Program-made: the position numbers and the translations under genes
Notes under the pieces: model-generated
The model's database searches: none
Told to the model about the DNA's origin: nothing
Seen by the model: the letters and a program-made list of their open reading frames with translations, nothing else
Origin: a virus
Taxonomy: Duplodnaviria > Heunggongvirae > Uroviricota > Caudoviricetes
Strand: one strand, 5' to 3'
IMG/VR virus record: IMGVR_UViG_3300029841_000003
Length of the DNA: 64,000 bases
Shown: positions 16,438-62,455 of the stretch, in pieces
Layout: every line of letters starts with the position of its first letter
Position numbering within the stretch: the stretch's first letter is position 1

Positions 16438-16438
16438 G

Positions 16439-17757: not shown

Positions 17758-17809
17758 ATCAGTCCTGTACACACGCAGCATTCTTGCAGAAAAGAGGTAA
17801 GAGAAGAAA

Positions 17810-18097: not shown

Positions 18098-18458
18098 AGT
18101 TATGTTATCTATAGAAGAACCTAATTCATGTGACGAATGCCCATTTTCAGAATTAGAAACGTATGGATATTATTGCCAATTATTAAATAAATACATTAAT
18201 TCCTTAAAAAGGAAAGAACATTCAACGATTCCTAAATTATGTCCATTAAGAGAATTACCAGATTACCGTACAGAAACATACAAATGGGAAGATAGACTTC
18301 TAAGCTTACAAGACGTGATTGAATCAATGGCTTATGAAATTGCTACATATAGACACTCTAATAGATATTCTCATATAGAAGATGTGGATGATATTTTAAG
18401 AGAATATGAAGTTGATAAAATTATAAAGGAGATGAGAAAGTATGGAACCAATTATTAG
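18090..18458 (+). CDS. small CxxC zinc-ribbon-like protein (paralog)
   Basis: Shares its N-terminal motif with the previous ORF. Confidence 0.35.
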   Translation: MSKVMLSIEEPNSCDECPFSELETYGYYCQLLNKYINSLKRKEHSTIPKLCPLRELPDYRTETYKWEDRLLSLQDVIESMAYEIATYRHSNRYSHIEDVDDILREYEVDKIIKEMRKYGTNY

Positions 18459-18783
18459 TCCTTGGTTGATTTATTTTGCAAGTAGAGCAGATGCAGTGGG
18501 GACTTTATTTCTGATTGTTGCAGTAGCTGCATTTGCAATATGTTTGATAGGATTTGATGATTTAACAAAGAATGGATTCAAGTTATTTATTTCAATTGGG
18601 ATTATTTCTGTAATTTTAACAGTTCTTACACCAACTACCGAAACCGTTTATACAATGATGGTTGCAAATGAACTAACATCGGACAATGTTCAAGCAATTG
18701 GGAAAACCGGCAAGGATGTTATTGATTACATTACTGATCAGATTGATAAAGTTGTAAACGACAAAGAGGAGAATAAAAAATAA
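18442..18783 (+). CDS. small membrane protein (2 predicted TM helices)
   Basis: Hydrophobic stretches LFLIVAVAAFAICLIGF and LFISIGIISVILTVL. Confidence 0.35.
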   Translation: MEPIISPWLIYFASRADAVGTLFLIVAVAAFAICLIGFDDLTKNGFKLFISIGIISVILTVLTPTTETVYTMMVANELTSDNVQAIGKTGKDVIDYITDQIDKVVNDKEENKK

Positions 18784-20255: not shown

Positions 20256-20721
20256 AATTACAGATTATTTATTAAAAGATGATGTGATTGTAGTAATGGA
20301 TGTAGATGGAGTACTTGCTCCGTATGAGTTTTCTGAATTAAGTCATAGTATGACTGACGATGAATGGGACAGACTTGTAGCTTCCGGTGAGAATCCGTAT
20401 AAAGATGTGCGTCCGATCAAATTAATACAGGAGTTTATTCAGAAGAAAGGCGTGAATAAAGTATATACCTGTTCAAAGAGTCCTTTAAATGAAATTCCTG
20501 GTAAAAGAGCTTTTATAAAAGACAATTATGATCTGCCAGATGATAATATCTATTTCACTTTAGAAAAGACAGAAAAACTTACTGTGCTTCAAACGCTGCA
20601 ACAAAAGCTCGGACTTAAGCCATCTCAGATTGCAATTGTAGAAGATACAGTTAAAACTTTGGATTATATTCGTGCACATAGCGATTTTGTAACTGTACAT
20701 GTTTCATCATTTATGGAGTAG
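20248..20721 (+). CDS. HAD-superfamily hydrolase (phosphatase/nucleotidase-like)
   Basis: HAD motif I VVMDVDGVLA near the N-terminus. Confidence 0.45.
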   Translation: MSKITDYLLKDDVIVVMDVDGVLAPYEFSELSHSMTDDEWDRLVASGENPYKDVRPIKLIQEFIQKKGVNKVYTCSKSPLNEIPGKRAFIKDNYDLPDDNIYFTLEKTEKLTVLQTLQQKLGLKPSQIAIVEDTVKTLDYIRAHSDFVTVHVSSFME

Positions 20722-21142
20722 ATATAGGGAGGTATTAAAAATGAGTTATTTTACTGATTCAGTTTCAGATCTTTGTCAGGGGATTATTGATAAAGTAGAT
20801 ACTTATGAAAAACGAATCAAATACTTAGAAGAAGAAAACAAAAAGTTCAAAGATGAGCATTATAAAGACTCTGAAATGCAGAGAATGAAAACAGAGTTGG
20901 AAAAAGCAAAAGATGATTTACATAGAGGATTTCCAATTTCTAAAGAAGAAGAGGAGAAAATCAAAGAGTGGCAGTTAAAACATGACGCTGAGAAACATGG
21001 TTTGAAAACTATGGAACAGAGATTGAGAGCTGGCGGATGTTGTGGCGGGAGATATACATATCAATTTGTTCCCACAAGCATTGGAACTATTGGAGAAGTG
21101 ATTTGCTCCTGTGGCGAGAAGTTTACATTTCAGGATTTATAG
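20699..21142 (+). CDS. hypothetical coiled-coil protein with C-terminal Cys cluster
   Basis: 147-aa ORF with C-terminal GGCCGG...CSCGEKF. Confidence 0.3.
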   Translation: MFHHLWSRYREVLKMSYFTDSVSDLCQGIIDKVDTYEKRIKYLEEENKKFKDEHYKDSEMQRMKTELEKAKDDLHRGFPISKEEEEKIKEWQLKHDAEKHGLKTMEQRLRAGGCCGGRYTYQFVPTSIGTIGEVICSCGEKFTFQDL

Positions 21143-21152
21143 GAAAAGATTT

Positions 21153-21653
21153 ATGATTAAAATTATTGAAGGTAACATTGTAGATGCACAGACCGATTAT
21201 ATAATTCATCAAGTTAATTGCCAAGGAGAAATGAATACTGGAGTCGCTAAAGCATTAAGAGATTATGACGAAGGTATTTATATACATTATAGAAACGTCT
21301 GTAAATTACGTGAGTTTAATCCAGAATTACTTCTTGGAACATATGACGAGTACTTTATCAGAAGGAAAAATCAAGAGATATTGTCCTTATTTGCACAAGA
21401 CAAGTATGGATATGATGGAAAACAGTATACTGATGTTAAAGCTTTTCGAGAAGGATTAAATTTTATTCGACAACAAATACCTGTTTATTGGTTTGATGCT
21501 GATAACAGACCTCACAAGACAACCATTGCACTCCCATATAAAATAGGCTGCGGAAGAGGAGGAGCAGACTGGGAAGTGGTTTATAAGATTATAGAAGAAG
21601 AATTAAGTAGTTTTGAAGTAGAATTGTGGAAATTGGAGGAGCAGAATGTTTAA
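21153..21653 (+). CDS. macro-domain-like protein (ADP-ribose binding/processing)
   Basis: The N-terminus MIKIIEGNIVDAQTDYIIHQVNCQGEMNTGVAKALRD parallels the macro-domain pattern (GDIT...DAIVNAAN..GGGGVDGAIHRAAG). The start was chosen at the internal ATG, because the track start at 21111 overlaps the previous gene. Confidence 0.45.
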   Translation: MIKIIEGNIVDAQTDYIIHQVNCQGEMNTGVAKALRDYDEGIYIHYRNVCKLREFNPELLLGTYDEYFIRRKNQEILSLFAQDKYGYDGKQYTDVKAFREGLNFIRQQIPVYWFDADNRPHKTTIALPYKIGCGRGGADWEVVYKIIEEELSSFEVELWKLEEQNV

Positions 21654-22791
21654 TGTAGAAAAAGCAACAAATGATTGTATTCAGTGGATTAGAGATTGGA
21701 GAGAAGAGAATGGTCCTGGATGTAATCTCATAGTAGGTATTTCCGGTGGCGTTGACTCTTTAGTAGCTGCTAAGCTATGTGTGGAAGCCGTTGGAGCTGA
21801 CAAAGTTCTCGGAGTAATCATGCCGAACTATAAACAGGATGATATTGATGTGGCTTATGATATTTGCCAGCATGTATTAAACATTGATTATCTTACTATT
21901 AATATTGGATCAGCTTATGATGATATTATTGATCAAATTGATGCTGCATTTAATGTAACAGATCAGACATTAATTAATCTCGCTCCTAGACTAAGAATGA
22001 CCACTCTATACGGGGTGTCACAGTCACACAATGGAAGAGTGGTTAATACATGTAATCTTTCTGAGGATTACATCGGATACTCCACTAGATATGGTGACGC
22101 AGCAGGGGACTTTTCACCGTTGGCTCAGTTCACAAAGAGTGAAGTAAAAAGAATCGGTTATTATTTAGGACTACCTAAAAAATATATAGAGAAAACACCA
22201 TCAGATGGGTTATGCGGTAAATCAGATGAAGATAGCTTCGGATTTACCTATGCAGTATTAGATAGATATATTCGTACAGGTATTTGCGATGATCCGGAAA
22301 TTAAAAGACGGATTGATCGTTTACATACAAAAAATAAGTTTAAACTGAAACCAATGCAGTATTTTAATTATAAAGAGGAGAAAACAGATATGAATATGTC
22401 ACCAGATGAGATTTTAAAAGCACTTGAAAAAGCAGTAGCGAAAAAAGAAAAAGAGCATACTATTGGAGAAGAGCTTAGAAGCTGTGAGCGTCAGATTAAA
22501 GATGCTTTAGGCATTGATGTATATATTGTACCTAAAAATAAAACTGATAAACAGGTTTGTAAAACACTTTCGAAAGATGATATCACATTTGTAGGAAGAA
22601 CAAAAGATATTGCTACAGGAAAAATTAGAACTACTGTAGGGTTCAAAGATGGAACACAGACTTCTGTAGTCTTAAATGATTGGGAAGACGAAGATGATAC
22701 TGAAAAAGCCATTATGTGGTGTTTGCTTAAGAAGTGTTTCAAATCAAAAAGAAGCTTAGAAAAAGTAATTTATTCAATGGAGGACATGTAA
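21646..22791 (+). CDS. nadE: NH3-dependent NAD+ synthetase (NadE) with ~130-aa C-terminal extension
   Basis: PP-loop SGGxDS (GISGGVDSLVAAKLC) plus NadE-type downstream blocks (RMTTLYGV, GDFSPLA). Residues ~250-381 form an extra domain of unknown function. Confidence 0.8.
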   Translation: MFNVEKATNDCIQWIRDWREENGPGCNLIVGISGGVDSLVAAKLCVEAVGADKVLGVIMPNYKQDDIDVAYDICQHVLNIDYLTINIGSAYDDIIDQIDAAFNVTDQTLINLAPRLRMTTLYGVSQSHNGRVVNTCNLSEDYIGYSTRYGDAAGDFSPLAQFTKSEVKRIGYYLGLPKKYIEKTPSDGLCGKSDEDSFGFTYAVLDRYIRTGICDDPEIKRRIDRLHTKNKFKLKPMQYFNYKEEKTDMNMSPDEILKALEKAVAKKEKEHTIGEELRSCERQIKDALGIDVYIVPKNKTDKQVCKTLSKDDITFVGRTKDIATGKIRTTVGFKDGTQTSVVLNDWEDEDDTEKAIMWCLLKKCFKSKRSLEKVIYSMEDM

Positions 22792-23781: not shown

Positions 23782-24300
23782 ATGAAAATAAAAGCAAAGC
23801 AAATAATTGTAGATGGGAGCACATCTTATAAATATTATAAACCTAAATTCTGTTGCAAAGCATTGGAAGAGAATCCTAGGATAGTTATTTCTAATGAATA
23901 TCCTGATAACTACTTATGTAGAACTTGTGAAACTATAGAATGCCATGGTTGTGACTATAAAACTGATGAAACTTTTGGAATTTTCTTTTACATAAGCGAA
24001 GAAGTCCAAGACTGGGAAGATACATGGCCTGAAGACTATTATTACCCTCTTAAATTCTGTCCATTTTGCGGAGAACCAATTGAAGTTGATGTCATAGAAA
24101 CCATTGATAAAACAGAAGAAGCAGAAAAGGTATCTGAGGTTGCAACGAAGCTACGAAAACAGTTATGGACATGTGATAGCAAGAAAAAGTGTGCAGAGTT
24201 AGAAAAAGAGATAAGGAACTTAGACGATATAGTAAATTATTATTATTCAACAGGAGAAATTGATGAAAATAGAGAAAATCAAAAAATTGTTGAAAAGTGA
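23782..24300 (+). CDS. Cys-rich zinc-finger-like protein
   Basis: 172 aa with CC..C, CRTCETIECHGC and CPFCGEP motifs. Confidence 0.35.
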   Translation: MKIKAKQIIVDGSTSYKYYKPKFCCKALEENPRIVISNEYPDNYLCRTCETIECHGCDYKTDETFGIFFYISEEVQDWEDTWPEDYYYPLKFCPFCGEPIEVDVIETIDKTEEAEKVSEVATKLRKQLWTCDSKKKCAELEKEIRNLDDIVNYYYSTGEIDENRENQKIVEK

Positions 24301-25294
24301 ACACTATGATTTCTTAAGAGCGAACGAGCACCTGGGGAGTAACATAATTCTATTAGGCTTAGGTGGGTCTCATGCTTATGGTACAGATACAGAAAACTCC
24401 GATCTGGATATTAGGGGTTGTGCTTTAAATAAAAGAGAAGAAATCCTGATTCCTACACATAATTTTGATCAGGTAACGGAAGAAACAACAGATACAACAA
24501 TCTATTCTTTTAATAAATTGATAACTCTATTGTCAAACTGCAACCCAAACACAATTGAGCTGATAGGATTGAAGCCAGAACATTATCTTTATATTCATCC
24601 AATTGGTCAAGAACTTCTTGATAATGCTGAAATGTTTTTATCTAAGAAAGCGATCTATTCTTTTGGAGGCTATGCTACAAGCCAGCTAAGAAGGCTCGAT
24701 AATAAATCTGCCAGGAAATTGGGACAAGAAGAAAGAATGCAGCATGTTCTTAATAGTATTATGAATGCTTTTTATACTTTCCCTGAAAAGTATTTCAATT
24801 TTCCAGAAGATGCAATAAAGCTTTATGTAGATAAAGGTATTCAGGAAGATTATGAAACAGAAGTATTTATGGATATCCAGTTGAAGCATTACCCTTTGAA
24901 TGATTATCAGGGGATGTGGGCCGAAATGAAAAACATTGTTAGGGATTATTCCAAAATTGGGAAGAGAAATAAGCATGCCATAGAACATAATAAGTTAGGA
25001 AAGCATATGTGCCATTTAGTGAGATTGTATCTTATGTGTTTTGATATTCTTGAAAAAGGCAAAATTATTACATATAGAGAAGATGATCATGAGCTTCTTA
25101 TGGCTCTACGTAATGGAGAATATTTGGATGCAAACAGTCAGCCTATCCCAGAATTTTTTGAAATGGTAAACGAGTTAGAGAAAAGACTTGAGTATGATTC
25201 AAAGAATACCTCATTGCCTGATAAACCAAATTATAAAGCTATAGAAGAATTTGTAATGTCTGTCAATGAAAGAATTGTATTAGGAGAGATTTAA
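24260..25294 (+). CDS. Pol-beta-superfamily nucleotidyltransferase (minimal NTase fold, PF10127-like)
   Basis: NTase signature GLGGSHAYGTDTENSDLDIRG (GS...D.D). 344 aa. The substrate is unknown. Confidence 0.5.
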   Translation: MMKIEKIKKLLKSEHYDFLRANEHLGSNIILLGLGGSHAYGTDTENSDLDIRGCALNKREEILIPTHNFDQVTEETTDTTIYSFNKLITLLSNCNPNTIELIGLKPEHYLYIHPIGQELLDNAEMFLSKKAIYSFGGYATSQLRRLDNKSARKLGQEERMQHVLNSIMNAFYTFPEKYFNFPEDAIKLYVDKGIQEDYETEVFMDIQLKHYPLNDYQGMWAEMKNIVRDYSKIGKRNKHAIEHNKLGKHMCHLVRLYLMCFDILEKGKIITYREDDHELLMALRNGEYLDANSQPIPEFFEMVNELEKRLEYDSKNTSLPDKPNYKAIEEFVMSVNERIVLGEI

Positions 25295-25296
25295 GA

Positions 25297-27918
25297 ATGA
25301 ATTTTAATGGATTAAAAAGTAGCGAAGTAGAGGTTAGTAGGACTACATATGGAAGTAATAAGCTTCCGGAACCTGAATTGAAAAAATGGTATCATTTTGC
25401 TAAGGAAGCATTAACTGAACCAATTACTATGATTCTAATAATAATTGCTTTGTTTCAGTTGGTTTTAGGCGCTATGGGAGTAATGTCTCTTTCTGAACCT
25501 GTAATGATTATAGTGGTTTTAGCTATTGTTACTGGAATTGCTATTAAGACAGGTCTAGGCGTACAGAAATCTGCAGCAGAGCTAAGAGCAAAAACGGCAG
25601 TTAGATATTGTGATGTTGTCCGAGATGGAAACGTACAGACAATTAATAAAGATGATCTGGTAGTAGGTGATTTAGTTCTATTGAGAACTGGACAAGAGAT
25701 TTTTGCAGATGGATTTATTGTTGATGGAGAAATTTCTGTTAATAACGCCGCTATCAATGGAGAGACAAAAGAATGTAGAAAAATTCCTAGTGCTAATTAT
25801 AAGCATGTTAAAACAACATCAACTACTGCATATACGGATCAGTGTTCTCTCTTTGCAGGAACAGTTATCATGTCTGGTGAAGGAAAAATGATTGTTACAG
25901 ATGTTGGTGTTAATACAGTTAATGGTGATACTCTTGTCAAAATGCAGACTTTAGAGCCTCCTAAGACAGCTCTTGATATTGCTCTGGATCATTTGTGTGA
26001 TTTTATTTCAAAATGGGGAACAATTGCGGCAGCATTAGCATTTGTAATTATGACAATTACAGGTATCTTAAATGCTGGAAGCTTAAGTCAGTATTTCTTA
26101 GGAAGTATTCTTGAAAGTATTCAGAAGGTAGCACAGAATGTCTCAAATGCATTGACAATTATTGTTGCGGCTGTACCGGAAGGTCTGCCACTCATTGTAA
26201 AACTTGTAACTAAACAGAATGTATCGACAATGGAAAAATTCAATATTCTTGCGAAGAATACTGGTAAAATTCCTGAATTGGCGTATGTTAATTTAATTTG
26301 TACGGATAAGACAGGAACTCTCACAACAGGTGAAATGACCTCTACAGTTATGATTAACGGTAACTGTCAGGATATTTTTAATAAGGAAAGTTCGCTCAAC
26401 GAGCTAATTGATTTAAACATTTGCATGAACAATAGCGCAGTGTTTGACTCTAATGGAAACATCACTGGTGGTAATTCGATTGATCGAGCAGTGCTTGATA
26501 TGCTTTCTCCTGAAGATGCACAAAAAATACAGAATAAAGCTATCATAAAGAAACGTGTTCCATTTAGTAGTGAAAATAAATTCTCTGCAATTACTTTAAG
26601 TAATGGAGCAAATGATTTTACTGTTTATAAGGGTGCACCAGAAAAACTGATTGAGAAATGCAAAACTTATCTCGATAATGATGGCAATGTAACTGAGCTA
26701 ACAGAAGAAAAACGAAAAGCTTTGAAAAGTCATATTAAGGGATTAACAGAGAAAGCAATGAGGTGTATTGCATTGACTATCTCAGATAAAGCTGATGATG
26801 GTCTCCCTGATGAAATGAATTTCCTTGGAGTCATTGGAGTTGTTGACCCGGTTAGGAATGAAGTTCCAGAAGCAGTAAAAATTGCTCATAAAGCTGGAAT
26901 TCAGGTAATTGAAATTACTGGTGATTGCATGGAGACGGCTAAGGCTGTTGCTATGGAAGCTGGCATTTATAAGCCTGGAGACTTAGCAGTTACTAATGAT
27001 GAGTTTGAGGCAATGTCAGATGTAAAAGTAAAAGAAATTATTCCACAGTTAAGAGTAATTTCCAGATGCTCACCGAATACGAAACTTCGTCTTGTAACAT
27101 TAGCGCAAGAAATTGGAATGTCTGTAGCAATGACAGGTGATGGTGTGAACGATGCTCCTGCATTAAAGAAAGCAGATGTAGGCTTTGGAATGCAAGACGG
27201 ATCTGATGTAGCAAAAGAAGCAGCAGACATTGTTTTGACGGACAATAATTTTGCAAGTGTAGTAAAAGCAGTCGAACTTGGTAGAACATTTATGCATAAC
27301 ATTATGATGTTCCTTGAATTCCAGCTGCCTATCAATATTTCGTTGTTGATCTTAAGTATGGTATTTCCAATTATTTCTGGTGGCTCTGCTCTATTAGCAG
27401 CAGTTCAGATCCTTATTGTAAATATCATCATGGATTCACTTAACTCATTAAGCTTTGGTGGAGAACCGCCAAAAGAAGAATATATGAATGAAGAGCCTAT
27501 CATGAAAGGATCCGGATTATTTATCCGTGGAGCGAAAGGGAGAATTGCATTAAGTTCAATTGTATTTATTGCTTTATTTGGTGTAATTACATTTGGTCCA
27601 GTTGGGAATATGTTTACAACAAAACTTTCGGCTATGACAGCGAGATTCGCTTTATTGTGTTTAATGGCAGTATTTAATGGATTCACTATTAGAACAGATA
27701 GTATGAATCTTTTCAAAGGAATTAAAAATAATAAATTATTTGTGTATATCGCATTAGGTATTTTTGCAATGACTGTAGTTTTGTGTAATTTTGTAGGAAA
27801 TTTAGTACAGACAACTCCAATGGATGTTAAACAGTGGATTGTAGTCTTAGTGACAGCTTTTATGATTGTGCCTGTAGATTGGATTAGGAAAGCAATTTGT
27901 AAGAAAGGAAGTAAATAA
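25297..27918 (+). CDS. P-type cation-transporting ATPase
   Basis: 873 aa with the phosphorylation motif ICTDKTGTLT, a TGD motif (ITGDCMETA), the hinge MTGDGVNDAPALKKADVGFGM and multiple TM segments at both ends. Confidence 0.85.
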   Translation: MNFNGLKSSEVEVSRTTYGSNKLPEPELKKWYHFAKEALTEPITMILIIIALFQLVLGAMGVMSLSEPVMIIVVLAIVTGIAIKTGLGVQKSAAELRAKTAVRYCDVVRDGNVQTINKDDLVVGDLVLLRTGQEIFADGFIVDGEISVNNAAINGETKECRKIPSANYKHVKTTSTTAYTDQCSLFAGTVIMSGEGKMIVTDVGVNTVNGDTLVKMQTLEPPKTALDIALDHLCDFISKWGTIAAALAFVIMTITGILNAGSLSQYFLGSILESIQKVAQNVSNALTIIVAAVPEGLPLIVKLVTKQNVSTMEKFNILAKNTGKIPELAYVNLICTDKTGTLTTGEMTSTVMINGNCQDIFNKESSLNELIDLNICMNNSAVFDSNGNITGGNSIDRAVLDMLSPEDAQKIQNKAIIKKRVPFSSENKFSAITLSNGANDFTVYKGAPEKLIEKCKTYLDNDGNVTELTEEKRKALKSHIKGLTEKAMRCIALTISDKADDGLPDEMNFLGVIGVVDPVRNEVPEAVKIAHKAGIQVIEITGDCMETAKAVAMEAGIYKPGDLAVTNDEFEAMSDVKVKEIIPQLRVISRCSPNTKLRLVTLAQEIGMSVAMTGDGVNDAPALKKADVGFGMQDGSDVAKEAADIVLTDNNFASVVKAVELGRTFMHNIMMFLEFQLPINISLLILSMVFPIISGGSALLAAVQILIVNIIMDSLNSLSFGGEPPKEEYMNEEPIMKGSGLFIRGAKGRIALSSIVFIALFGVITFGPVGNMFTTKLSAMTARFALLCLMAVFNGFTIRTDSMNLFKGIKNNKLFVYIALGIFAMTVVLCNFVGNLVQTTPMDVKQWIVVLVTAFMIVPVDWIRKAICKKGSK

Positions 27919-27919
27919 A

Positions 27920-28687
27920 ATGGGATTTTTTGATAAGTTATTTGGGAAAAAAGATGAGGAAGCAGCAGTAGAGTTATCTTCTGCTGTAACTCAGCAACCT
28001 GTATATGAAGAAAAGTTACAGACAATTGATATGTCTAAGCACAGTGAAAATCTTGGCAAAGTACTTATTGATATGTCTAAGGGAAGCAAGATTGATATGA
28101 CAAAACATACAGCTAGAGTAGCTCTTGCAATGGATTATTCAGGAAGTATGGATTGGCTGTATGATAATGGATCTGTACAGGAAACCATTTCTCGTTTGTT
28201 GCCTATTGCTCTAAGATTTGACGATAATGGAGAACTTGAGAGTTGGTTGTTCTCAAATGGAGCGGAGCGCTTAAAAGCTGCTAACGCTGATAATTATAGT
28301 AGTTATGTTAAAAATGTTATGAAAAAAGCTCATATGTATATGGGTGGTACTAATTATGCTCCTGTATTGAAAGAAATGGTTACATATTATAAAGATATTG
28401 AGCCAAGTGAGATTCCAGCATTTATCATCTTTATTACAGATGGTGAGAACAGTGACACTTCTGCCACCAATGCAGTTATTAAAGAGCTTTCAGAGTACAA
28501 CATCTTTGTACAGTTCATAGGAATTGGGGATGAAGATTTTGGTTATTTAAAATCCCTTGACAATATGAAAGGTAGAAAACATGATAACACCGGTTTTACA
28601 GCAGTAAAAGACATGAATAAAATGTCTGATGAACAGTTATATACAGAGATTCTTCGTCAGTATAAAGACTGGCTGAATAATAAATAA
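27920..28687 (+). CDS. von Willebrand factor A (vWA) domain protein, TerY-like
   Basis: MIDAS motif DYSGSM, then GGTNYAP and IFITDG, which are typical vWA blocks. Confidence 0.6.
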   Translation: MGFFDKLFGKKDEEAAVELSSAVTQQPVYEEKLQTIDMSKHSENLGKVLIDMSKGSKIDMTKHTARVALAMDYSGSMDWLYDNGSVQETISRLLPIALRFDDNGELESWLFSNGAERLKAANADNYSSYVKNVMKKAHMYMGGTNYAPVLKEMVTYYKDIEPSEIPAFIIFITDGENSDTSATNAVIKELSEYNIFVQFIGIGDEDFGYLKSLDNMKGRKHDNTGFTAVKDMNKMSDEQLYTEILRQYKDWLNNK

Positions 28688-28704
28688 AAAGGAGATAAAG
28701 AGAT

Positions 28705-29343
28705 ATGGCAGTAATCAACATGAGCAAAAATCAGAAAATTAGTATGGTAAAAGAGGATGGTACAGGTATTAAGAACTTCTTCATTGGAGTCAATTGGGAT
28801 CAGAACCGTTATGCTGGTGAAGCAGATATTGACTTTGATATCAATGGATTTTTAACAGATTCAAGTCGCAAAGTAGTATACCCAGAAGATTTAGTAAACT
28901 ATAAAACCTATGAAGATGGGTCTGCATATCCTTGGGTAGATTATTCAGGAGACAATAAAACTGGTGATGATTCTCAGGGAATGATTTTTAATGGAAAGCA
29001 TTATGACGAATATTTTATTGTACATGCTGACACATTCCCGAAAGATAAAACAGAATTTACTATCTGCTTAACAATTTTTAGGGCATTACAGCGTATGCAG
29101 AACTTTGGAATGGTCTCCAATGCAGTTATGACAATTTGTGATTACGACAATCCAGATGGTGATAAGTATGAATATGATCTGTCTGAGAATGAGAACTTTG
29201 AAAAATTGAATGCAGTAGAAATGGGTAAATTATACCGTTACGGAGATGGATTCAAATTCCAGGCATTAGGTTCCGGTTATGTGGGAGGTATGACAGAACT
29301 GTTTAAAAACTTTGGGCTTGATATTGATGAGGGGAGAGACTAA
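28705..29343 (+). CDS. terD: TerD-domain protein (tellurium-resistance/stress TerD family)
   Basis: Blocks align by eye to TerD: ISMVK, GVNWD, SGDNKTGDDSQG, FGMVSNAVMTI, GKLYRYGDGFKFQALGSGYVGGMTELFKNFG. Confidence 0.8.
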   Translation: MAVINMSKNQKISMVKEDGTGIKNFFIGVNWDQNRYAGEADIDFDINGFLTDSSRKVVYPEDLVNYKTYEDGSAYPWVDYSGDNKTGDDSQGMIFNGKHYDEYFIVHADTFPKDKTEFTICLTIFRALQRMQNFGMVSNAVMTICDYDNPDGDKYEYDLSENENFEKLNAVEMGKLYRYGDGFKFQALGSGYVGGMTELFKNFGLDIDEGRD

Positions 29344-30089
29344 TGAACTTATTTGAAATTGTGGTCCTAATAGCTGTAGTAATTAGTATTGTGTTATTTA
29401 TTGCACGTACAACTCAAATTGGTAAGAGAGTGTCACTTAGAGTTGCTGGTACAGCAGACGAAGCAATTCAAAAAGATGCAGCCACCCCTGAGGGAGCTAA
29501 AGCTTATTATAACGCTGCTATTGAAAAGAAAGAAGATGAACTTCAGCAGGAAAATGTAAGATATCAACAGATGCTTGGTAAGATTTCCAATTATGAAGAT
29601 GACCTGTTCCATTTGAAGAAAGATGCCATGAAAGCAGATGTAAATGTAAATGCTTGTGTGGATCGAGGAGATGACGAAGCAGCAAAAGTCTACTTAAAAG
29701 AACAACAGGAGCTGAATGATAAGATTGATTTTATTAAGAGTACATTAAAAGAATGGAAAGAGAATGCTGACGTACAGAAAGAAAAAGTAGAAGTATTACA
29801 GCAACAGCTTAATGATTTAAAAGCAGAAAAAGAAAGTGCTGTTTTAACTTTGGAAACAGCTCAGGCATCAAAAGCTTTTAATGTAACACCGGGAGTATCT
29901 TCTAGTGAAGAGGAAAAGATGCTAGAGAAAGTACGTGACGGAGTTAAAAAGCAAAAAGAGGCTGCTGATGGAGCTAGGATCGTTTATGAAAGTTCTACTA
30001 TTGTGCAAAAACAGCGTCTGGATAAGAAAATGAAAGATGATGAAATTAATAAAAAGTTGCAGGAACTGAAAACAAAGAAAGGCAAATAA
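29343..30089 (+). CDS. PspA/IM30-like coiled-coil protein with N-terminal TM helix
   Basis: N-terminal hydrophobic segment followed by a long coiled coil. Stretches such as DRGDDEAAKVYLKEQQEL resemble PspA (KDREDLARAALIEKQKL). Confidence 0.4.
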   Translation: MNLFEIVVLIAVVISIVLFIARTTQIGKRVSLRVAGTADEAIQKDAATPEGAKAYYNAAIEKKEDELQQENVRYQQMLGKISNYEDDLFHLKKDAMKADVNVNACVDRGDDEAAKVYLKEQQELNDKIDFIKSTLKEWKENADVQKEKVEVLQQQLNDLKAEKESAVLTLETAQASKAFNVTPGVSSSEEEKMLEKVRDGVKKQKEAADGARIVYESSTIVQKQRLDKKMKDDEINKKLQELKTKKGK

Positions 30090-30322
30090 AATGATAGTGT
30101 TAAATATAGGCGTGTTTGTAGTATGCTTATTAACCTGTTTCTTAGTTGGATTCTTTGTAGGGAAGAGAAAATAAGTGTAGTAACAAAAGGTTAAGGTGGG
30201 GTTCAATTCCTCACCTACACTTAAGGAGGTTAAACAATGAAATAAAATATGGAGGTGATATTACGCAAAGAGGAAAACGAATATTAAATAAACCAATTGA
30301 TGACGCATGTGAAAAGGAAATT

Positions 30323-30516: not shown

Positions 30517-30939
30517 ATGATTAATAGTTTTACTGGAGATTATTACTTTTTAAGTAACTTTTATATGGCCCCGGTAAGTTATAACGGATGGGACTATACA
30601 AATAATGAAGCAGCTTTTCAAGCACAGAAAACAAAAAATCGTAGACTAAAATTTCAGTTATTCTCTCAAGCTAGCCCATCAGAAGCAAAGGCAGCAGGTA
30701 GAAAGATTGATTTGAGATCAGATTGGGAAGAAGTGAAAGATAAAGTAATGTATGAAATCGTACTGGCTAAATTCACTCAGAATCCAGACCTTAAGGAAAA
30801 ATTACTTGCTACAGGAGATGAATATTTGGAAGAGGGTAATACTTGGGGAGATACTATTTGGGGAACTGTAGATGGAGTTGGAGAAAATAGGCTTGGGAAG
30901 ATACTTATGAGAGTGAGAGATGAATTAAATGAAACTTAA
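30517..30939 (+). CDS. NADAR (YbiA/DUF1768) domain protein
   Basis: FTGDYYFLSNFY...AFQAQK...W..VK..VMYEIVLAKFTQNPDLKEKLLATGDEYLEEGNTWGDTIWG matches the NADAR family pattern (F.G....LSNF...Eh.fqA.K...W......M...l.KF.q...l...Ll.Tg...L.E....D..WG). Confidence 0.65.
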   Translation: MINSFTGDYYFLSNFYMAPVSYNGWDYTNNEAAFQAQKTKNRRLKFQLFSQASPSEAKAAGRKIDLRSDWEEVKDKVMYEIVLAKFTQNPDLKEKLLATGDEYLEEGNTWGDTIWGTVDGVGENRLGKILMRVRDELNET

Positions 30940-31055
30940 CATATTTTTTATCATTCTTGATGCTATTTTTATAGCAGTATCATTGGTAGACCTTATTACT
31001 TATAAAAATTTATTTAGTTTAATGCTAGTAGCTTTTTTCGCTTGGACATTTGTAA

Positions 31056-31340
31056 TTGATATTAAAGAATATAAAGGAGACAAATAACATGGTAAAAACA
31101 TTAAAAGAAACAACAGAAATGATGGTTAGCCCAGATTATAAAGAAAGATTCAAAGCTGAATATTACCAGTTAATGCTTAGATTCAGAGGTTTACAGTCTA
31201 TGCTCTTTAAATGGGACAATGGAACTCTTAGTTTTGAACCAACATGCCCAAGAAGTACTTATAATATTCAGATTGATGCTATGGCAAGCTATTTAGCTAT
31301 CTTAGAAGCTAGGGCTGTTATGGAAGGTATTGAATTATAA
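31056..31340 (+). CDS. hypothetical protein
   Basis: 94-aa ORF. Confidence 0.3.
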   Translation: MILKNIKETNNMVKTLKETTEMMVSPDYKERFKAEYYQLMLRFRGLQSMLFKWDNGTLSFEPTCPRSTYNIQIDAMASYLAILEARAVMEGIEL

Positions 31341-31518
31341 AGGAGAGAGTATGAATCCAGTATTTGTATTTTTAATATTGGTTGGAGCTGTAGTTTTATG
31401 GTTCCTATTATCTGCATTGTTTTATCCATTCGGACGATTCTTGCATAGAATTTGGAAAGATGCAGTAGACGAAATAAACAGAGAAGAAAATAAAGAAAAA
31501 GATAAGGAGAATGAGTAA
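31330..31518 (+). CDS. small membrane protein
   Basis: 62 aa with a TM helix (VFVFLILVGAVVLWFLLSALFYPF). Confidence 0.3.
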   Translation: MNYKGESMNPVFVFLILVGAVVLWFLLSALFYPFGRFLHRIWKDAVDEINREENKEKDKENE

Positions 31519-32489
31519 TGAAAAAGAAAAAAGGTTTTTTAGGTGGGGTTGGATTAGCAGTAATAATTGCAGCAGGATTAATTTGTGTAGCAAAGTGCAC
31601 AGTAAGAGTTCCTGCTGGTTATGTAGCTGTAGAATACAAGATGAACGGTGGAATTTCAAAAGATACTCTTTCACAGGGATGGAATTTGATTTCACCTACA
31701 GTAAAAACATCACTGTATTCAATTGGTATTGAACAGTCTTATCTGACTTCAGAAGATAAAGGTGATTCACCAAAAGATGAGAGTTTTAAAACTCCTACCG
31801 CAGATGGGAAACAGCTTCTTGTTGATTTGGAATTCTCTTATAAATTCGATCAGGATCAAGTTGCTGATGTATTTACAAGATTTAAAGGTCAGTCCGGAGA
31901 AAGTGTAAAAAATACTTTCATTAAACCAAAGATGAAAGCGTGGACACAGGAAGTAACTGCTAAGTATCCGGTAACAGATGTATTTGGTGATAAACGCCAG
32001 GAACTGAATGAAGCACTTGACAAATACTTGAAAAAGAAATTTGAGCCATATGGAATCATCATTGATACTGTAAACTTTACTTCAATTTCTACAGATGATG
32101 AAACTCAGGCTGCTATTCAGAAGAAGGTAAATGCACAGCAGGAACTGGAACTTGCAAATATTGAAGCTAAGACTGCAAAGGTACAGGCAGATAAAGATAA
32201 GGAAGTTGCTCTCATCGCAGCGGAGCAGGATAAAGAGAAAGCCGCTATTGAAGCTGAACAGGCGAAAATCACTGCGGAAGGTAAAGCTGAAGCTACAAGA
32301 ATTAAAGCGGATGCTGAAGCAGAAGCAAATAAAAAGATCGCTGAGTCACTTACTCCAGAACTTATTGAGAAACAGAAGATTGATAAGTGGAATGGTGATG
32401 TGCCGAAGGTACAAGGTGGAAATGCTGCAACAATTGTTGACGCAGGAGAATTAACATCAGGCAATGTAGCAACTGTTGAAAATAAATAA
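31518..32489 (+). CDS. SPFH/band-7 (prohibitin/HflC-like) domain membrane protein
   Basis: N-terminal TM helix, an SPFH-like core (VPAGYVAVEYKMNGG ... TVNFTSIS) and a C-terminal Ala/Glu/Lys-rich coiled coil. Confidence 0.65.
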   Translation: MKKKKGFLGGVGLAVIIAAGLICVAKCTVRVPAGYVAVEYKMNGGISKDTLSQGWNLISPTVKTSLYSIGIEQSYLTSEDKGDSPKDESFKTPTADGKQLLVDLEFSYKFDQDQVADVFTRFKGQSGESVKNTFIKPKMKAWTQEVTAKYPVTDVFGDKRQELNEALDKYLKKKFEPYGIIIDTVNFTSISTDDETQAAIQKKVNAQQELELANIEAKTAKVQADKDKEVALIAAEQDKEKAAIEAEQAKITAEGKAEATRIKADAEAEANKKIAESLTPELIEKQKIDKWNGDVPKVQGGNAATIVDAGELTSGNVATVENK

Positions 32490-33343: not shown

Positions 33344-33582
33344 TTAAGCAAACCATGGGATGGATTTCTGCTATATGTGGAGTAATTGGAGCTGTATGTA
33401 GTGGTTGGAAGTTAATGCTTTTGCCAGTAGTAACAATATTAAACATGATTGCAGATAAAAAATTAAACCTGTGTATTTTACTAATTTCAATTATGAAAAT
33501 GTTTTTTGCGATACCCATAGCATATTTCATGATTCTTATAGGATTTTCAATCGCTACATATTGTTGGAGGTGGTGGAAATAA
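33340..33582 (+). CDS. small membrane protein (2 TM)
   Basis: Hydrophobic 80-aa ORF. Confidence 0.3.
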   Translation: MIKQTMGWISAICGVIGAVCSGWKLMLLPVVTILNMIADKKLNLCILLISIMKMFFAIPIAYFMILIGFSIATYCWRWWK

Positions 33583-60723: not shown

Positions 60724-61917
60724 TTAATCAAGTAAATTTATGACTTCTGATTTATGTTTATTCATGATATGCATATATATGTTATAAGTTGTGGAAACAT
60801 CTTCATGTCCAAGTATCTCTGATATTACCTTGATATCTACAGGTTGGTTCTGTTCCCATCCTTTCTGCAGCAGCATGGACCCAAATGAATGTCTGAGATC
60901 ATGTAAGCCGAAACCGTCAGATTCAATATCAGCTCTCTTGAGGATTGCTTTAAGCGTCCTGGTAAGAGTTGACTGTGATGGTGGAATATTGTTCTTAGTT
61001 ACGAATATATGGTCATCTCCGGATGCTTCCAGTCCAGGAGACACAGTTTTAAGCCAGAGCAACTGTTCCTTTGCACGATTTGCCAGAGGAATGACTCTGA
61101 TTGACTTAGGACGCTTTGGTGTATCTATGAGCCACTGATATTTGCTATCTACTTTGATACGCTCCATTGTCTTATCTATGTTAATGGTATTATTCTTAAA
61201 ATCTATATCTTTCCATGTGAGAGCATAAGCTTCTCCTATACGCATACCAGTATAAAGAACTAACAGACAGAACCTAGCATTACGTCCATAGATGTAATCA
61301 CCTGTCTTTACGCCTGGCAAAGCAGAATCTGCTTTCATAAGAGCCGTCTTATAAAACTTCTCAGCTTCTTCTAAAGATAAGAAAGAGTGCTCTTTCTTCT
61401 GTACTGCATATTTTGACTTATGCGGCATCTTAATCCCTTTTGCAGGATTCTCTGTGATGATGTTACAGGATACAAGATAGTCGAAAACAATATTGAAAAG
61501 AGTGCGTGTCTTTTTAACAGTACTCTCAGAATATTTCTTCGACATATTTGTATAGTATGTTTGAATGACAATCTTGTCTATAGCAGCCATCTGGACATCA
61601 GCAATCGGATTAGTTTTAATATAGCAGCGATTTGTAGACTGAAGAGTAGCATAGTTATTTGTCTTGAAAGTCGGCTCCAACGTCTGCAGGATATTATCTA
61701 TACATTCCCCAAGAGTCATCTTACGATAATCTTTTTGGTTAACCCTCATACTCTTAGCTTCAAATTCTTGTATCTTGCGTTTTACATCAGCTTTTGTCCT
61801 TCCTACAAATTCTTTCCGGCTTGTCATACCATCATATTTCTTACGGTACCTATAGTATGTAATGTCATTCTTTGTTACAGTATCCCATGATCCTGAACCT
61901 TTTTCCCTTCTTGCCAT
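60724..61917 (-). CDS. int: tyrosine integrase (phage integrase family)
   Basis: R box (YTGMRIGEAYALTWKDI), HDLRHSFGSML (HxLRH) and GHEDVSTTYNIYMH (catalytic Tyr). The start was chosen at MARREKG, after RBS GGAGGG. The track start at 61986 is upstream. Confidence 0.85.
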   Translation of the reverse strand: MARREKGSGSWDTVTKNDITYYRYRKKYDGMTSRKEFVGRTKADVKRKIQEFEAKSMRVNQKDYRKMTLGECIDNILQTLEPTFKTNNYATLQSTNRCYIKTNPIADVQMAAIDKIVIQTYYTNMSKKYSESTVKKTRTLFNIVFDYLVSCNIITENPAKGIKMPHKSKYAVQKKEHSFLSLEEAEKFYKTALMKADSALPGVKTGDYIYGRNARFCLLVLYTGMRIGEAYALTWKDIDFKNNTINIDKTMERIKVDSKYQWLIDTPKRPKSIRVIPLANRAKEQLLWLKTVSPGLEASGDDHIFVTKNNIPPSQSTLTRTLKAILKRADIESDGFGLHDLRHSFGSMLLQKGWEQNQPVDIKVISEILGHEDVSTTYNIYMHIMNKHKSEVINLLD

Positions 61918-62039
61918 ATACATCCCTCCGTTGTGCAAATTTACACTAATTTTACTTACAAAATAAAAAACTTTACTTTTTCCCAAAATTATGATAATAT
62001 GAATTATGTGTTAAGTAAATTATAGCATACGGATAAGGA

Positions 62040-62259: not shown

Positions 62260-62331
62260 GCGCCTGTAGCTCAGTGGATAGAGCAGTGGTTTCCGGTACC
62301 ATGTGCGGGGGTTCGATTCCCTTCAGGCGTG
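62260..62331 (+). tRNA. tRNA-Arg (anticodon CCG), host-type GC-rich
   Basis: Acceptor GCGCCTG/CAGGCGT (G1.U72), D-arm GCTC-AGTGGATAG-AGC, anticodon stem GTGGT/ACCAT, loop TTCCGGT and T-loop TTCGATT. GC content switches to ~50% from here on. Confidence 0.65.
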
Positions 62332-62455
62332 CTGCCTGGGACGTATGTACAGTTCCGGTGCGTTGTATCACAGGAGTTATCAGAATCGGGAACTGTCAGA
62401 AATCGTATGGCGGCAGTGAACGGAGCAAACGGTAACTCATAAGGAGGACAAGAAC

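What the first reader, a model, noticed from the sequence alone, without database searches (positions are those of the whole stretch)
25297..27918. Full-length P-type ATPase encoded inside a phage genome
DKTGTLT, TGD and GDGVNDAP motifs are all intact and TM bundles lie at both ends, so this looks like a functional ion pump. Ion pumps are rarely phage-encoded. Its substrate (Ca2+ versus Mg2+ or another ion) would define what the adjacent TerD and vWA proteins sense.
Basis: seen in the sequence. Interest (0 to 1): 0.6.

Follow-up and report, generated by a model that had tools for sequence, protein, structure and literature searches.

The report
Prophage calcium pump in TerD–PspA operon
A large SPβ-like prophage of the gut bacterium Blautia carries an intact, selection-maintained calcium-export pump as the first gene of a phage-specific five-gene block that also encodes calcium-binding TerD/vWA proteins, a membrane-anchored PspA-like protein and a tiny membrane peptide; phage calcium pumps were first reported in 2025-26, but I did not find this linkage described.

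Summary
Window 25297-27918 (+) is one intact 873-aa ORF with every P-type ATPase motif, a confident 10-helix model (pLDDT 88.9) and best matches to Ca2+ pumps (ACA8, PMCA, SPCA1). The ion site is PMCA-like: site II is kept (E295, N709, D713) and site I is absent. It just passes the curated PMCA-type model and lacks calmodulin-type autoinhibitory tails. The unusual NGET loop (for TGES) is common in the subfamily and is not decay. All 104 complete homologues are intact, with dN/dS of 0.08-0.2.

The element is an SPβ-like temperate prophage of about 160 kb. It sits next to tRNA-Arg in a Blautia chromosome.

The pump heads a tightly packed operon: pump, vWA-TerF, TerD (or three TerD genes), a TM-anchored PspA-like gene, and a conserved 27-aa micropeptide at 30091-30174. 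This operon is present in more than 150 viral contigs. It is absent next to the Ruminococcus/Oscillospiraceae chromosomal orthologues (63-65% identity).

"Rarely phage-encoded" is out of date: a 2026 Science Advances paper reports Ca2+ P-type ATPases in gut phages, including a few Bacillota phages of 159-197 kb.

Most likely function (inferred): Ca2+ extrusion coupled to Ca2+ buffering or sensing and membrane maintenance in the host cell. Interest is moderate.

The parts
25297..27918 (+). P2B-like (PMCA-type) single-site Ca2+ P-type ATPase, 873 aa, without calmodulin-type autoinhibitory extensions
   Evidence: (TIGR01517 509.9 bits against a cut-off of 507.05). Intact in 104/104 complete homologues. 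dN/dS is 0.08-0.2.
27920..28687 (+). vWA-TerF-like protein with an intact MIDAS motif (D-Y-S-G-S ... T ... D); its ATG lies 1 nt after the pump's stop codon
   Evidence: PF10138, 204 bits; phrog_5359; junction and Shine-Dalgarno sequence. Present in 35/80 viral loci, and replaced by extra TerD copies in the others.
28705..29343 (+). Divergent TerD-domain protein. It keeps GDNKTGD and DxDxD but has an 8-aa insertion, and GKHYDE in place of GDGDDE, in the Ca2+-binding loop
   Evidence: PF02342, 119 bits; alignment to K. pneumoniae TerD 2KXT. A TerD gene is present in 77/80 loci.
29343..30089 (+). PspA/IM30-like coiled-coil protein with an N-terminal TM helix in place of the amphipathic helix; its start overlaps the TerD stop (TAATG)
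   Evidence: PF04012, 29.7 bits, below the cut-off. 14/18 diverse homologues hit PspA_IM30, best E 1.8e-10, profile positions 25-216. The only PDB hits are weak ones to Vipp1/PspA. Present in 76/80 loci. Reciprocal linkage to the pump is 61/62.
30091..30174 (+). Conserved 27-aa single-pass TM micropeptide (MIVLNIGVFVVCLLTCFLVGFFVGKRK); not called by the gene callers
   Evidence: Found in 148-150 of 165 loci, abutting the PspA-like stop. There are 51 nucleotide versions encoding 40 peptides, some differing only by synonymous changes, and pooled pN/pS is 0.34. Absent near the chromosomal orthologues.
24260..25294 (+). RlaP-type nucleotidyltransferase immediately upstream (stop 2 nt before the pump's ATG). 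It is loosely linked: present within 10 kb in 41/80 loci, at variable positions
31518..32489 (+). SPFH/Band-7 membrane protein, a variable companion (15/80 loci)
60724..61986 (-). Tyrosine integrase at the prophage end
   Evidence: PF00589, 101.5 bits.
62260..62332 (+). tRNA-Arg(CCG) at the prophage/host junction. Beyond it, GC rises to 0.44 and the genes are from Blautia

Best explanation
The gene encodes a working P2B-like (PMCA-type) pump that exports one Ca2+ per ATP from the cytoplasm. It is carried by an SPβ-like temperate phage of about 160 kb that is integrated at tRNA-Arg in Blautia. The pump belongs to a tight clade shared with chromosomal genes of Ruminococcus/Oscillospiraceae, so it was exchanged with Clostridia hosts.

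In the phage lineage it is the first gene of a translationally coupled operon: pump, then vWA-TerF plus TerD (or three TerD genes), then a TM-anchored PspA/IM30-like gene, then a 27-aa TM micropeptide.

The most likely role is a Ca2+ and envelope homeostasis module. The pump removes Ca2+ that leaks into the cell. The cytosolic TerD and vWA proteins bind, buffer or sense the Ca2+. The PspA-like protein stabilises damaged membrane. The micropeptide may partner the pump or the PspA-like protein. Together these would keep the host cell viable, probably during the long lytic programme.

Shown here: the gene is intact, carries catalytic and ion-site residues of the PMCA/ACA8 type, is under purifying selection, lies in a prophage, and has conserved, phage-specific operon linkage.

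Inferred: Ca2+ as the substrate, the direction of transport, co-expression of the genes, functional coupling between the proteins, and the benefit to the phage.
For: Identity of the pump:
- Pfam and NCBIfam assignments.
- Best PDB sequence matches are ACA8 (359 bits), then SPCA1, LMCA1 and PMCA1.
- Foldseek TM-scores of 0.76-0.82 to SPCA1, ACA8 and PMCA.

Ion site:
- E295 corresponds to SERCA E309.
- TM6 reads VNIIMDS, against PMCA/ACA8 VNLIMDT.
- The TM5 position of SERCA E771 is Leu and the TM8 position of SERCA E908 is Ala.
- The TM5-10 region scores ACA8 3.5e-27, PMCA 1e-20, SPCA1 3e-12 and SERCA/LMCA1 about 1e-8.
- All key residues are invariant in 94 family members.

Not a pseudogene:
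- 104/104 complete copies are intact.
- dN/dS is 0.08-0.2.
- NGE[ST] occurs in about 45% of the 134 nearest cluster representatives.

Phage identity:
- PHROG replication genes.
- The YorL polymerase is 48% identical to that of SPβ/phi3T.
- YorF and YorH Pfam families lie downstream.
- 156 IMG/VR contigs carry the family.
- Integrase, tRNA-Arg and a Blautia flank mark the junction.

Operon:
- Gene junctions of -1 to +17 nt, each with a Shine-Dalgarno sequence.
- Gene order is conserved in 76-77/80 loci despite unrelated flanks.
- Reciprocal linkage from the PspA-like gene to the pump is 61/62.
- The micropeptide is in 148-150/165 loci.
- No TerD, vWA or PspA gene lies next to the 11 chromosomal orthologues or the more distant relatives.

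Precedent: the Jug-phage Ca2+-ATPase is highly transcribed in gut metatranscriptomes, and Jug phages also have a terD gene next to a pspA-like gene (PMC12880540).

From established knowledge: TerD domains bind Ca2+ (K. pneumoniae TerD, PDB 2KXT/2KXV), and small TM peptides regulate P-type pumps (sarcolipin and phospholamban for SERCA, KdpF, MgtS and MgtR).
Against: - No functional or expression data exist for this lineage.
- The TIGR01517 score exceeds the cut-off by only 2.9 bits, and the CaM-binding domain that defines eukaryotic P2B pumps is absent.
- SPCA-type pumps with the same E/N/D site also carry Mn2+, so ion selectivity cannot be read with certainty from the sequence.
- The window's TerD has a disrupted second Ca2+ loop.
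- The PspA-like assignment is below the Pfam threshold for the window's protein.
- The promoter and terminator scans showed no signal above background, so the transcription unit and its timing (lytic or lysogenic) are unknown.
- The NJ tree cannot tell the direction of transfer: the chromosomal clade nests inside the phage diversity.
- One locus (L143) has the PspA-like gene without the pump, so the pump is dispensable in at least one relative.
Confidence: 0.7

Rival explanations
1. Lysogenic-conversion cargo. The operon is expressed from the resident prophage and benefits the Blautia lysogen by improving tolerance of the millimolar Ca2+ in the gut, of membrane-damaging bacteriocins, or of other stress. 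It would not serve the lytic cycle.
For: The element is an integrated temperate prophage. Close orthologues are ordinary chromosomal genes in Ruminococcus/Oscillospiraceae, so the pump is useful to cells as such. Plasmid ter operons are classic accessory stress cassettes that confer colicin and oxidative-stress resistance (PMC12054061, citing Whelan 1995).
Against: The block is packed co-directionally, without a detectable promoter or terminator of its own, inside a long run of early-type genes for replication, NAD salvage and RNA repair. The analogous pump of Jug phages is highly transcribed in active phage populations (PMC12880540). None of this is decisive.
Confidence: 0.2
2. Superinfection exclusion or defence module. 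Like plasmid ter operons, which inhibit phages, the TerD/vWA/PspA/pump block would protect the lysogen or infected cell against competing phages.
For: In ter operons, terC, terD and terZ are needed for phage inhibition (PMC12054061). Prophages commonly carry defence genes.
Against: No PADLOC model matches the pump, vWA, TerD or PspA-like protein. TerB, TerC and TelA of the canonical ter system were not found among the annotated neighbours. The neighbouring genes look like counter-defence or homeostasis functions (NAD salvage, RNA repair) rather than defence.
Confidence: 0.07
3. The pump transports a different ion (Mn2+, as SPCA/PMR1 does, or Mg2+ or H+), so the module concerns metal supply rather than Ca2+.
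For: SPCA1 is the second-best sequence match and the top Foldseek match. SPCA also has TGET, matching the query at three of the four positions of its NGET loop. TerC-type partners of TerD have been linked to Mn and Zn (PMC12054061).
Against: PMR1-type, SERCA-type, H+-type and MgtA-type NCBIfam models all score far below their cut-offs (414 against 798, 317 against 703, 272 against 616, 204 against 611). TM5 keeps the Asn of PMCA and SERCA where SPCA1 has Ser. The TM5-10 region scores about 1e-27 and 1e-20 against P2B pumps but 3e-12 against SPCA1.
Confidence: 0.1
4. Decaying passenger gene or pseudo-ATPase with no function in the phage.
For: The TGES loop is non-canonical (NGET). One related locus lacks the pump.
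Against: All catalytic residues are invariant in 94 members. 104/104 complete copies are intact. dN/dS is 0.08-0.2. NGE[ST] is widespread in the bacterial subfamily.
Confidence: 0.02

Closest known systems
Calcium-translocating P-type ATPases of Jug and other gut phages (PMC12880540, Sci Adv 2026; preprint 2025)
   Same: A full-length Ca2+ P-type ATPase encoded by gut phages, with 10 TM helices and intact DKTGT and Ca-site residues. It is host-derived by phylogeny. The phages also carry terD genes and a pspA-like gene. The paper lists four phages of 159-197 kb and ATPases similar to those of Bacillota, which may include this lineage.
   Different: Jug phages are 360-402 kb and infect Bacteroides/Phocaeicola. 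Their pump is Bacteroidaceae-like and is co-transcribed with an upstream gene for a 77-91-aa protein. Their terD and pspA-like genes are described as separate operons. Here the phage is an SPβ-like temperate prophage of Blautia. The pump is PMCA-like and of Clostridia type. It is fused into one operon with vWA/TerD, a PspA-like gene and a downstream 27-aa micropeptide, and the upstream gene is a 344-aa RlaP nucleotidyltransferase.
PMCA / plant ACA8 (P2B Ca2+-ATPases)
   Same: Best sequence match (ACA8, 359 bits). It passes TIGR01517. Site II has the PEGLP Glu and the N-x-x-M-D motif of TM6. Site I is absent (the E771 and E908 positions are non-acidic). The fold TM-score is 0.77-0.79.
   Different: There is no N- or C-terminal calmodulin-binding autoinhibitory domain (873 aa against 1050-1270). 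NGET replaces TGES. The TM8 position is Ala rather than Gln. Identity is only about 28%.
Listeria LMCA1, B. subtilis YloB and S. pneumoniae CaxP (bacterial Ca2+ exporters)
   Same: Short bacterial single-site Ca2+ pumps of Bacillota, of similar length and with no regulatory tails. LMCA1 matches at 304 bits.
   Different: LMCA1 is SERCA-like (P2A). The query scores well below the SERCA-type cut-off, and its TM5-10 region is much closer to P2B pumps. A Streptococcus oralis homologue is only 27% identical (L107). None of these is known to sit in a TerD/PspA operon (from memory; not tested here).
Chlorovirus Ca2+-transporting ATPase
   Same: A virus-encoded, functional P-type Ca2+ pump (cited in PMC6163359 and PMC12880540).
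   Different: It belongs to a eukaryotic giant virus, has an unrelated acquisition history and has no Ter/PspA partners.
Ter (tellurite-resistance) stress clusters, e.g. terZABCDEF of IncHI2 plasmids and B. subtilis yceCDEFGH
   Same: Several TerD-domain paralogues, a vWA-TerF-type protein, a membrane ion-handling component and a coiled-coil membrane-stress protein. The clusters are linked to membrane damage and phage phenotypes.
   Different: TerB, TerC and TelA were not found here. The membrane-transporter position is taken by a P-type ATPase and the coiled-coil position by a TM-anchored PspA/IM30-like protein. There is also a micropeptide.
Small TM regulators of P-type pumps (sarcolipin, phospholamban, KdpF, MgtS, MgtR)
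   Same: A single-pass peptide of 27-39 aa with a basic tail, encoded in the same operon as a P-type ATPase.
   Different: There is no sequence similarity and no evidence of interaction. The peptide lies after the PspA-like gene, not next to the pump. This is analogy only.

Membership tests
P-type (E1-E2) ATPase superfamily | Phosphorylation motif DKTGT with the catalytic Asp | tested here: met
   D337-K-T-G-T341. D337, K338, T339 and T341 are invariant in all 94 family members; G340 is Gly in 93 of 94.
P-type (E1-E2) ATPase superfamily | A-domain TGES dephosphorylation loop | tested here: inconclusive
   The loop reads N154-G-E-T157. The Gly and the catalytic Glu are kept and Thr is replaced by Asn. 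NGES or NGET occurs in 55 of the 134 nearest representatives, so the change is a subfamily variant. Its kinetic effect has not been tested.
P-type (E1-E2) ATPase superfamily | Hinge and nucleotide motifs TGD, GDGxNDxP and KGAPE | tested here: met
   T541-G-D, G614-DGVNDAP and K445-GAPE. The residues tested (K445; T541, G542, D543; D615, N618, D619) are each invariant in all 94 family members.
P-type (E1-E2) ATPase superfamily | A, P and N domains plus a 10-TM fold | tested here: met
   Model with pLDDT 88.9; Foldseek TM-scores of 0.76-0.82 to SPCA1, ACA8 and PMCA.
P2B (PMCA-type) Ca2+-ATPase | Score above the curated TIGR01517 cut-off | tested here: met
   509.9 bits against 507.05, a marginal pass.
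P2B (PMCA-type) Ca2+-ATPase | Single Ca2+ site II (TM4 Glu, TM6 Asn and Asp) with site I acidic residues absent | tested here: met
   E295, N709 and D713 are present. The SERCA E771 position is L683, the E908 position is A791 and the T799 position is M712.
P2B (PMCA-type) Ca2+-ATPase | Calmodulin-binding autoinhibitory N- or C-terminal domain | tested here: not met
   The query aligns to ACA8 residues 144-1017 and PMCA1 residues 358-1043 only. It has no extension at either end.
P2B (PMCA-type) Ca2+-ATPase | ATP-driven Ca2+ extrusion | not testable with these tools
   Needs transport or ATPase assays.
P2A SERCA/LMCA1-type | Score above the TIGR01116 cut-off, and two-site residues (E771, E908) or the LMCA1 pattern | tested here: not met
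   316.7 bits against 703.4; site I residues are absent.
P2A2 SPCA/PMR1-type | Score above the TIGR01522 cut-off | tested here: not met
   413.9 bits against 798.3. TM5 has Asn where SPCA1 has Ser.
P3B MgtA, P3A H+, P1B heavy-metal and KdpB types | Score above the respective NCBIfam cut-offs | tested here: not met
   204.5 against 610.75, 271.6 against 615.5, 169.6 against 346.25 and 99.8 against 527.9.
Phage-encoded Ca2+ P-type ATPase (auxiliary gene as in PMC12880540) | Encoded within a bona fide phage genome from a gut microbiome | tested here: met
   SPβ-like gene content; IMG/VR contigs; human-gut metagenome contigs; prophage junction. No structural genes lie inside the window or in the 10 kb to its left.
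Phage-encoded Ca2+ P-type ATPase (auxiliary gene as in PMC12880540) | Co-transcribed upstream gene for a small (77-91 aa) protein | tested here: not met
   The upstream gene is a 344-aa RlaP nucleotidyltransferase here and a 182-aa ORF in L032 and L053.
Phage-encoded Ca2+ P-type ATPase (auxiliary gene as in PMC12880540) | High transcription during infection | not testable with these tools
   No transcriptome data are available.
Ter stress-response cluster | TerD-domain protein or proteins plus a vWA-TerF-type protein | tested here: met
   PF02342 and PF10138.
Ter stress-response cluster | TerB, TerC or TelA components | tested here: not met
   None appear in the Pfam annotation of the ORFs scanned between 21.6 and 32.5 kb or in the precomputed Pfam annotation of genes within ±10 kb in close relatives.

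The most novel reading that the evidence does not exclude
The five-gene block is a self-contained Ca2+-signalling and repair device assembled by the phage lineage. TerD and vWA proteins would act as the Ca2+ sensors that take the place of the missing calmodulin-type control of a PMCA-like pump. The 27-aa micropeptide would be a bacterial 'regulin' for that pump, or a partner of the TM-anchored PspA. The module would neutralise Ca2+ influx and membrane lesions, for example from abortive-infection pores, bacteriocins or premature holin leakage. If true, this would give the long-enigmatic TerD family a concrete, testable biochemical role.
Probability: 0.2. Interest if true: 0.75.

Novelty: new variant of a known kind. 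Interest (0 to 1): 0.5.

Why it matters
This lineage is very common in human-gut metagenomes: there are hundreds of near-identical protein clusters, and single clusters are seen on up to 178 contigs. Its host, Blautia, is a dominant commensal.

Phage-encoded Ca2+ pumps are a very recent discovery with no experimental follow-up. This lineage is temperate and integrated in Blautia, and a related copy sits in a Ruminococcus isolate genome (L081). That makes it a more tractable system than the uncultured Jug phages.

The fixed, phage-specific coupling of a Ca2+ pump to TerD/vWA proteins, a PspA-like protein and a micropeptide is independent genomic evidence that TerD proteins work in Ca2+ handling at the membrane. 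It offers a compact operon with which to test that long-open question.

Tried and rejected
- Megablast of 12 kb around the gene against cultured phages gave no match.
- tblastn of the pump against the same collection gave only hits below 35% identity. These lay in multi-contig 'phage' records or bacterial WGS records that look like host contamination, so I did not take them as phage pumps.
- PADLOC had no model for any operon protein. Only the NADAR gene hit a candidate system.
- The sigma-70 promoter and intrinsic-terminator scans were at background level, so the transcription unit could not be defined.
- I first assumed the orthologues L086-L096 shared the housekeeping synteny of L092. They do not. 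Separate annotation showed varied but cellular contexts.
I used per-member Pfam scans instead.
- The supplementary tables of PMC12880540 are not held, so I could not check whether this lineage is one of its four 'smaller' phages.
- A scan from the RNA ligase to ask whether the module is core or accessory was informative only for close relatives. More distant phages have a different gene order.
- The NJ tree could not resolve the direction of transfer.
- The pseudo-ATPase reading suggested by NGET was rejected.
Full report
**1. The observation**

Window 25297-27918 (+) is a single 873-codon ORF with an ATG start. [quoted passage not shown]

- DKTGTLT at residues 337-343
- TGD at 541-543
- GDGVNDAP at 614-621
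- PEGLP at 294-298

An AlphaFold2 model built on 61 diverse homologues is confident (pLDDT 88.9, pTM 0.85). It shows the A, P and N domains and ten TM helices, with TM4 broken at PEGLP. Foldseek places the model with SPCA1, ACA8 and PMCA at TM-scores of 0.76-0.82.

**2. Which pump**

NCBIfam ranks the PMCA-type model TIGR01517 first. It scores 509.9 bits, just above the 507.05 cut-off. The PMR1, SERCA, H+, MgtA, heavy-metal and Kdp models all fall far below theirs.

Among solved structures the best sequence match is plant ACA8 (P2B), followed by SPCA1, LMCA1 and PMCA1.

Residue-level alignments give this picture:
- E295 corresponds to SERCA E309.
- TM6 reads VNIIMDS, against VNLIMDT in PMCA and ACA8. 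This supplies N709 and D713 of site II.
- The site I positions are non-acidic: the E771 position is L683, the E908 position is A791 and the T799 position is M712.

The protein is therefore a single-site, PMCA-like Ca2+ pump. It aligns only to the core of ACA8 (residues 144-1017) and PMCA1, so it lacks the calmodulin-binding autoinhibitory tails.

One deviation is that the TGES loop reads NGET. This is not decay. NGES or NGET occurs in 55 of the 134 nearest 50%-cluster representatives. N154, G155 and E156 are invariant in 94 family members, as are the other catalytic and ion-site residues tested; the only exceptions are G340 (Gly in 93 of 94) and T157 (Thr or Ser).

**3. Is it maintained?**

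All 104 homologous copies not cut by a contig end are intact single ORFs. Pairs with unsaturated dS give dN/dS of 0.08-0.2.

**4. What carries it**

The window is almost entirely co-directional, with GC of about 0.33. It encodes the following phage-type functions:
- NAD-dependent ligase
- NAMPT
- RNA ligase
- DnaB-like helicase
- a split DNA polymerase
- an ExoV/Dda-like helicase
- ribonucleotide reductase

The polymerase is 48% identical over 97% of its length to YorL of Bacillus phages SPβ and phi3T. Relatives carry the Pfam families YorF and Phage_SPbeta_YorH downstream.

The right end of the window is a prophage junction. It holds a tyrosine integrase (60724-61986, minus strand) and a complete tRNA-Arg(CCG) (62260-62332). 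Beyond these, GC is 0.44. The first gene beyond the junction is identical to a 'MULTISPECIES [Blautia]' SH3 protein found on a 4.64-Mb contig.

Contigs carrying the same genes are about 110-226 kb long. One of 162.6 kb places the pump about 33 kb from one end.

I saw no structural genes in the window or in the 10 kb to its left. Phage identity therefore rests on the SPβ-like gene content, IMG/VR membership and the integration junction.

**5. Neighbourhood**

From 23782 to 30174 the genes are packed with junctions of -41 to +17 nt. From the pump to the PspA-like gene, each has its own Shine-Dalgarno sequence. The order is:
- an ORF of unknown function
- an RlaP nucleotidyltransferase
- the pump
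- a vWA-TerF-like gene, whose MIDAS motif (DxSxS/T/D) can be read directly from the sequence
- a divergent TerD gene
- a PspA/IM30-like gene with an N-terminal TM helix
- a 27-codon ORF

Across 80 IMG/VR loci with pumps 65-99% identical, the order pump, TerD-type gene or genes, PspA-like gene is kept in 76-77 loci, even where the flanks are unrelated. Two architectures exist: vWA-TerF plus one divergent TerD (as in this window), or three canonical TerD genes.

Starting instead from the PspA-like gene, 61 of the 62 loci with enough upstream sequence carry the pump.

The PspA assignment is below threshold for the window's own protein. It is supported by 14 of 18 diverse homologues, with a best E-value of 1.8e-10 over profile positions 25-216 of 220.

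**6. A conserved micropeptide**

Directly after the PspA-like stop lies 30091-30174, which encodes MIVLNIGVFVVCLLTCFLVGFFVGKRK.
- An equivalent ORF abuts the PspA-like stop in 148-150 of 165 loci.
- There are 51 nucleotide versions encoding 40 peptides of 27-39 aa.
- All versions keep the MIVLN-G-F start, one hydrophobic helix and a basic tail.
- Several versions differ only by synonymous changes.
- Pooled pN/pS is 0.34.

The ORF is absent near the chromosomal orthologues, and the gene callers did not call it.

**7. Origin**

In one genome per GTDB species, copies 63-65% identical lie in Ruminococcus, Oscillospiraceae and Clostridia assemblies at GC 0.38-0.46. I annotated five of them. Their contexts are cellular but variable: RF2, gpmI, DnaB/DnaI and leuABC in one; AsnA, dockerin and pilin genes, Lon, GH3 and a CDF transporter in the others. 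No TerD, vWA, PspA or SPFH gene lies within 8 kb of any of the 11.

Copies that do carry the module, such as the one in the Ruminococcus sp. AM36-2AA isolate, have phage-like GC and gene content.

Outside this clade, the next relatives are at most 48% identical. In an NJ tree the chromosomal clade nests within the phage diversity. Exchange between phages and hosts is clear; its direction is not.

**8. Comparison with what is known**

A 2018 survey of viral transporters found P-type ATPases only in chloroviruses and giant viruses (PMC6163359). My tblastn against cultured phages found only hits that look like contamination.

PMC12880540 (Sci Adv 2026; preprint August 2025) changes this picture. 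[quoted passage not shown] Those ATPases resemble the pumps of Bacteroidaceae or Bacillota. The Jug pump is highly transcribed and co-transcribed with an upstream small gene. Jug terD genes, one of them next to a pspA-like gene, are described as separately transcribed operons.

PHROGs also already contains a matching family, phrog_12316.

A phage Ca2+ pump is therefore no longer new, and this lineage may be among the four 'smaller' phages. That could not be checked because the supplements are not held. I did not find a description of the fixed operon joining the pump to vWA/TerD, a TM-anchored PspA-like protein and a micropeptide, nor of its phage specificity.

**9. Mechanism**

Shown: an intact PMCA-like single-site pump under purifying selection, in a conserved and translationally coupled phage operon.

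Inferred:
- The pump extrudes cytosolic Ca2+, as all characterised P2 Ca2+-ATPases do.
- TerD proteins (a Ca2+-binding fold, PDB 2KXT) and the MIDAS-bearing vWA protein buffer or sense Ca2+.
- The PspA/IM30-like protein protects damaged membrane.
- The micropeptide partners the pump or the PspA-like protein, by analogy with sarcolipin, KdpF and MgtS.

The surrounding genes concern NAD salvage and RNA repair: an isochorismatase-family protein, NAMPT, NadE and NADAR on one side, and a kinase-HD protein, RlaP, RNA ligase and phosphoesterases on the other. This fits a region devoted to keeping the infected cell alive.

Whether the block acts in the lytic cycle or as lysogenic cargo is open. I give about 0.2 to the lysogenic-conversion rival.

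**10. Verdict**

The finding is real. The substrate question is largely answered: Ca2+, through a P2B-like single site. The rarity claim is out of date. The added value is the phage-specific operon and the micropeptide. Interest is moderate (0.5), and the novelty class is a new variant of a known kind.

Noticed in passing
window 30091-30174 (+): An uncalled 27-aa single-TM micropeptide gene directly after the PspA-like stop. It is conserved in about 90% of 165 related loci, with 40 peptide variants and pN/pS of 0.34.
   Followed up: yes
window 25756-25767 (ATPase residues 154-157): The A-domain TGES loop reads NGET. This is invariant in the family, and NGES/NGET is common (55 of 134) among the nearest bacterial PMCA-like representatives. 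It may mark a kinetically distinct subfamily.
   Followed up: yes
window 44978-47542, 47651-48295, 48374-49762 (+): The SPβ YorL-type DNA polymerase is split into two ORFs (phrog_405 positions 45-783 and 804-1094). A 214-aa ORF with a NUMOD4 domain (homing-endonuclease type) lies between them. This suggests an intron or a free-standing endonuclease insertion.
   Followed up: partly
window 15862-22791 and 30517-30939 (+): A cluster of NAD+ salvage or reconstitution genes: an isochorismatase-family protein (possible nicotinamidase), a PRPP-synthetase-like protein, NAMPT, NAD synthase and a NADAR domain protein (the last hits PADLOC candidate PDC-M42C). This may be a countermeasure to NAD-depleting defences.
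   Followed up: partly
window 10928-11860, 24260-25294, 33471-36185, 36352-37650 (+): An RNA-repair-like gene set: a kinase-HD protein, an RlaP nucleotidyltransferase, two metallophosphoesterases and an RNA ligase.
   Followed up: no
window 60724-62332 and 62456-64000: A prophage/host junction: a tyrosine integrase, a complete tRNA-Arg(CCG), then Blautia genes at GC 0.44 (an SH3-domain protein and a polysaccharide deacetylase).
   Followed up: yes
window 13039-15262 (+): Four phage-borne tRNA genes: Gln-TTG, Met-CAT, Phe-GAA and Leu-TAG.
   Followed up: no
window 4624-5631 and 6877-7788 (+): Two further tyrosine-recombinase-type genes (Phage_integrase and MrpR-like) lie inside the prophage, far from the attachment site.
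   Followed up: no
window 28705-29343 (TerD residues ~80-100): The window's TerD has an 8-aa insertion and loses two Asp residues of the GDGDDE Ca2+-binding loop, relative to K. pneumoniae TerD. The sister architecture instead has three canonical TerD genes.
   Followed up: partly
L143 1-8000: One related viral locus has the TerD genes and the PspA-like gene but no pump. A 473-aa ORF lies in the region instead. This is a natural pump-less variant.
   Followed up: partly
L005 and L019 (IMGVR_UViG_3300029402_000234, 250 kb): A single IMG/VR record holds two pump modules (98% and 72% identical to the window's pump) about 190 kb apart. The record may be a chimeric bin, two prophages on one host contig, or a concatenation of two phage genomes.
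   Followed up: no
L100-L103, L106, L108 (GTDB contigs, GC 0.24-0.27): Pumps 32-34% identical that share the AINGE[TS]KE or TFMHNIM signature lie on very AT-rich contigs binned as Bacilli, Muribaculaceae or Bacteroidaceae MAGs. These may be mis-binned huge phages, perhaps Jug-like.
   Followed up: no
L111-L115, L117 (about 15798-16049); window equivalent about 30940-31520: Close relatives carry an 83-aa gene with the Pfam 'Sequestin' family between the NADAR and SPFH genes. I did not verify it in the window itself.
   Followed up: no
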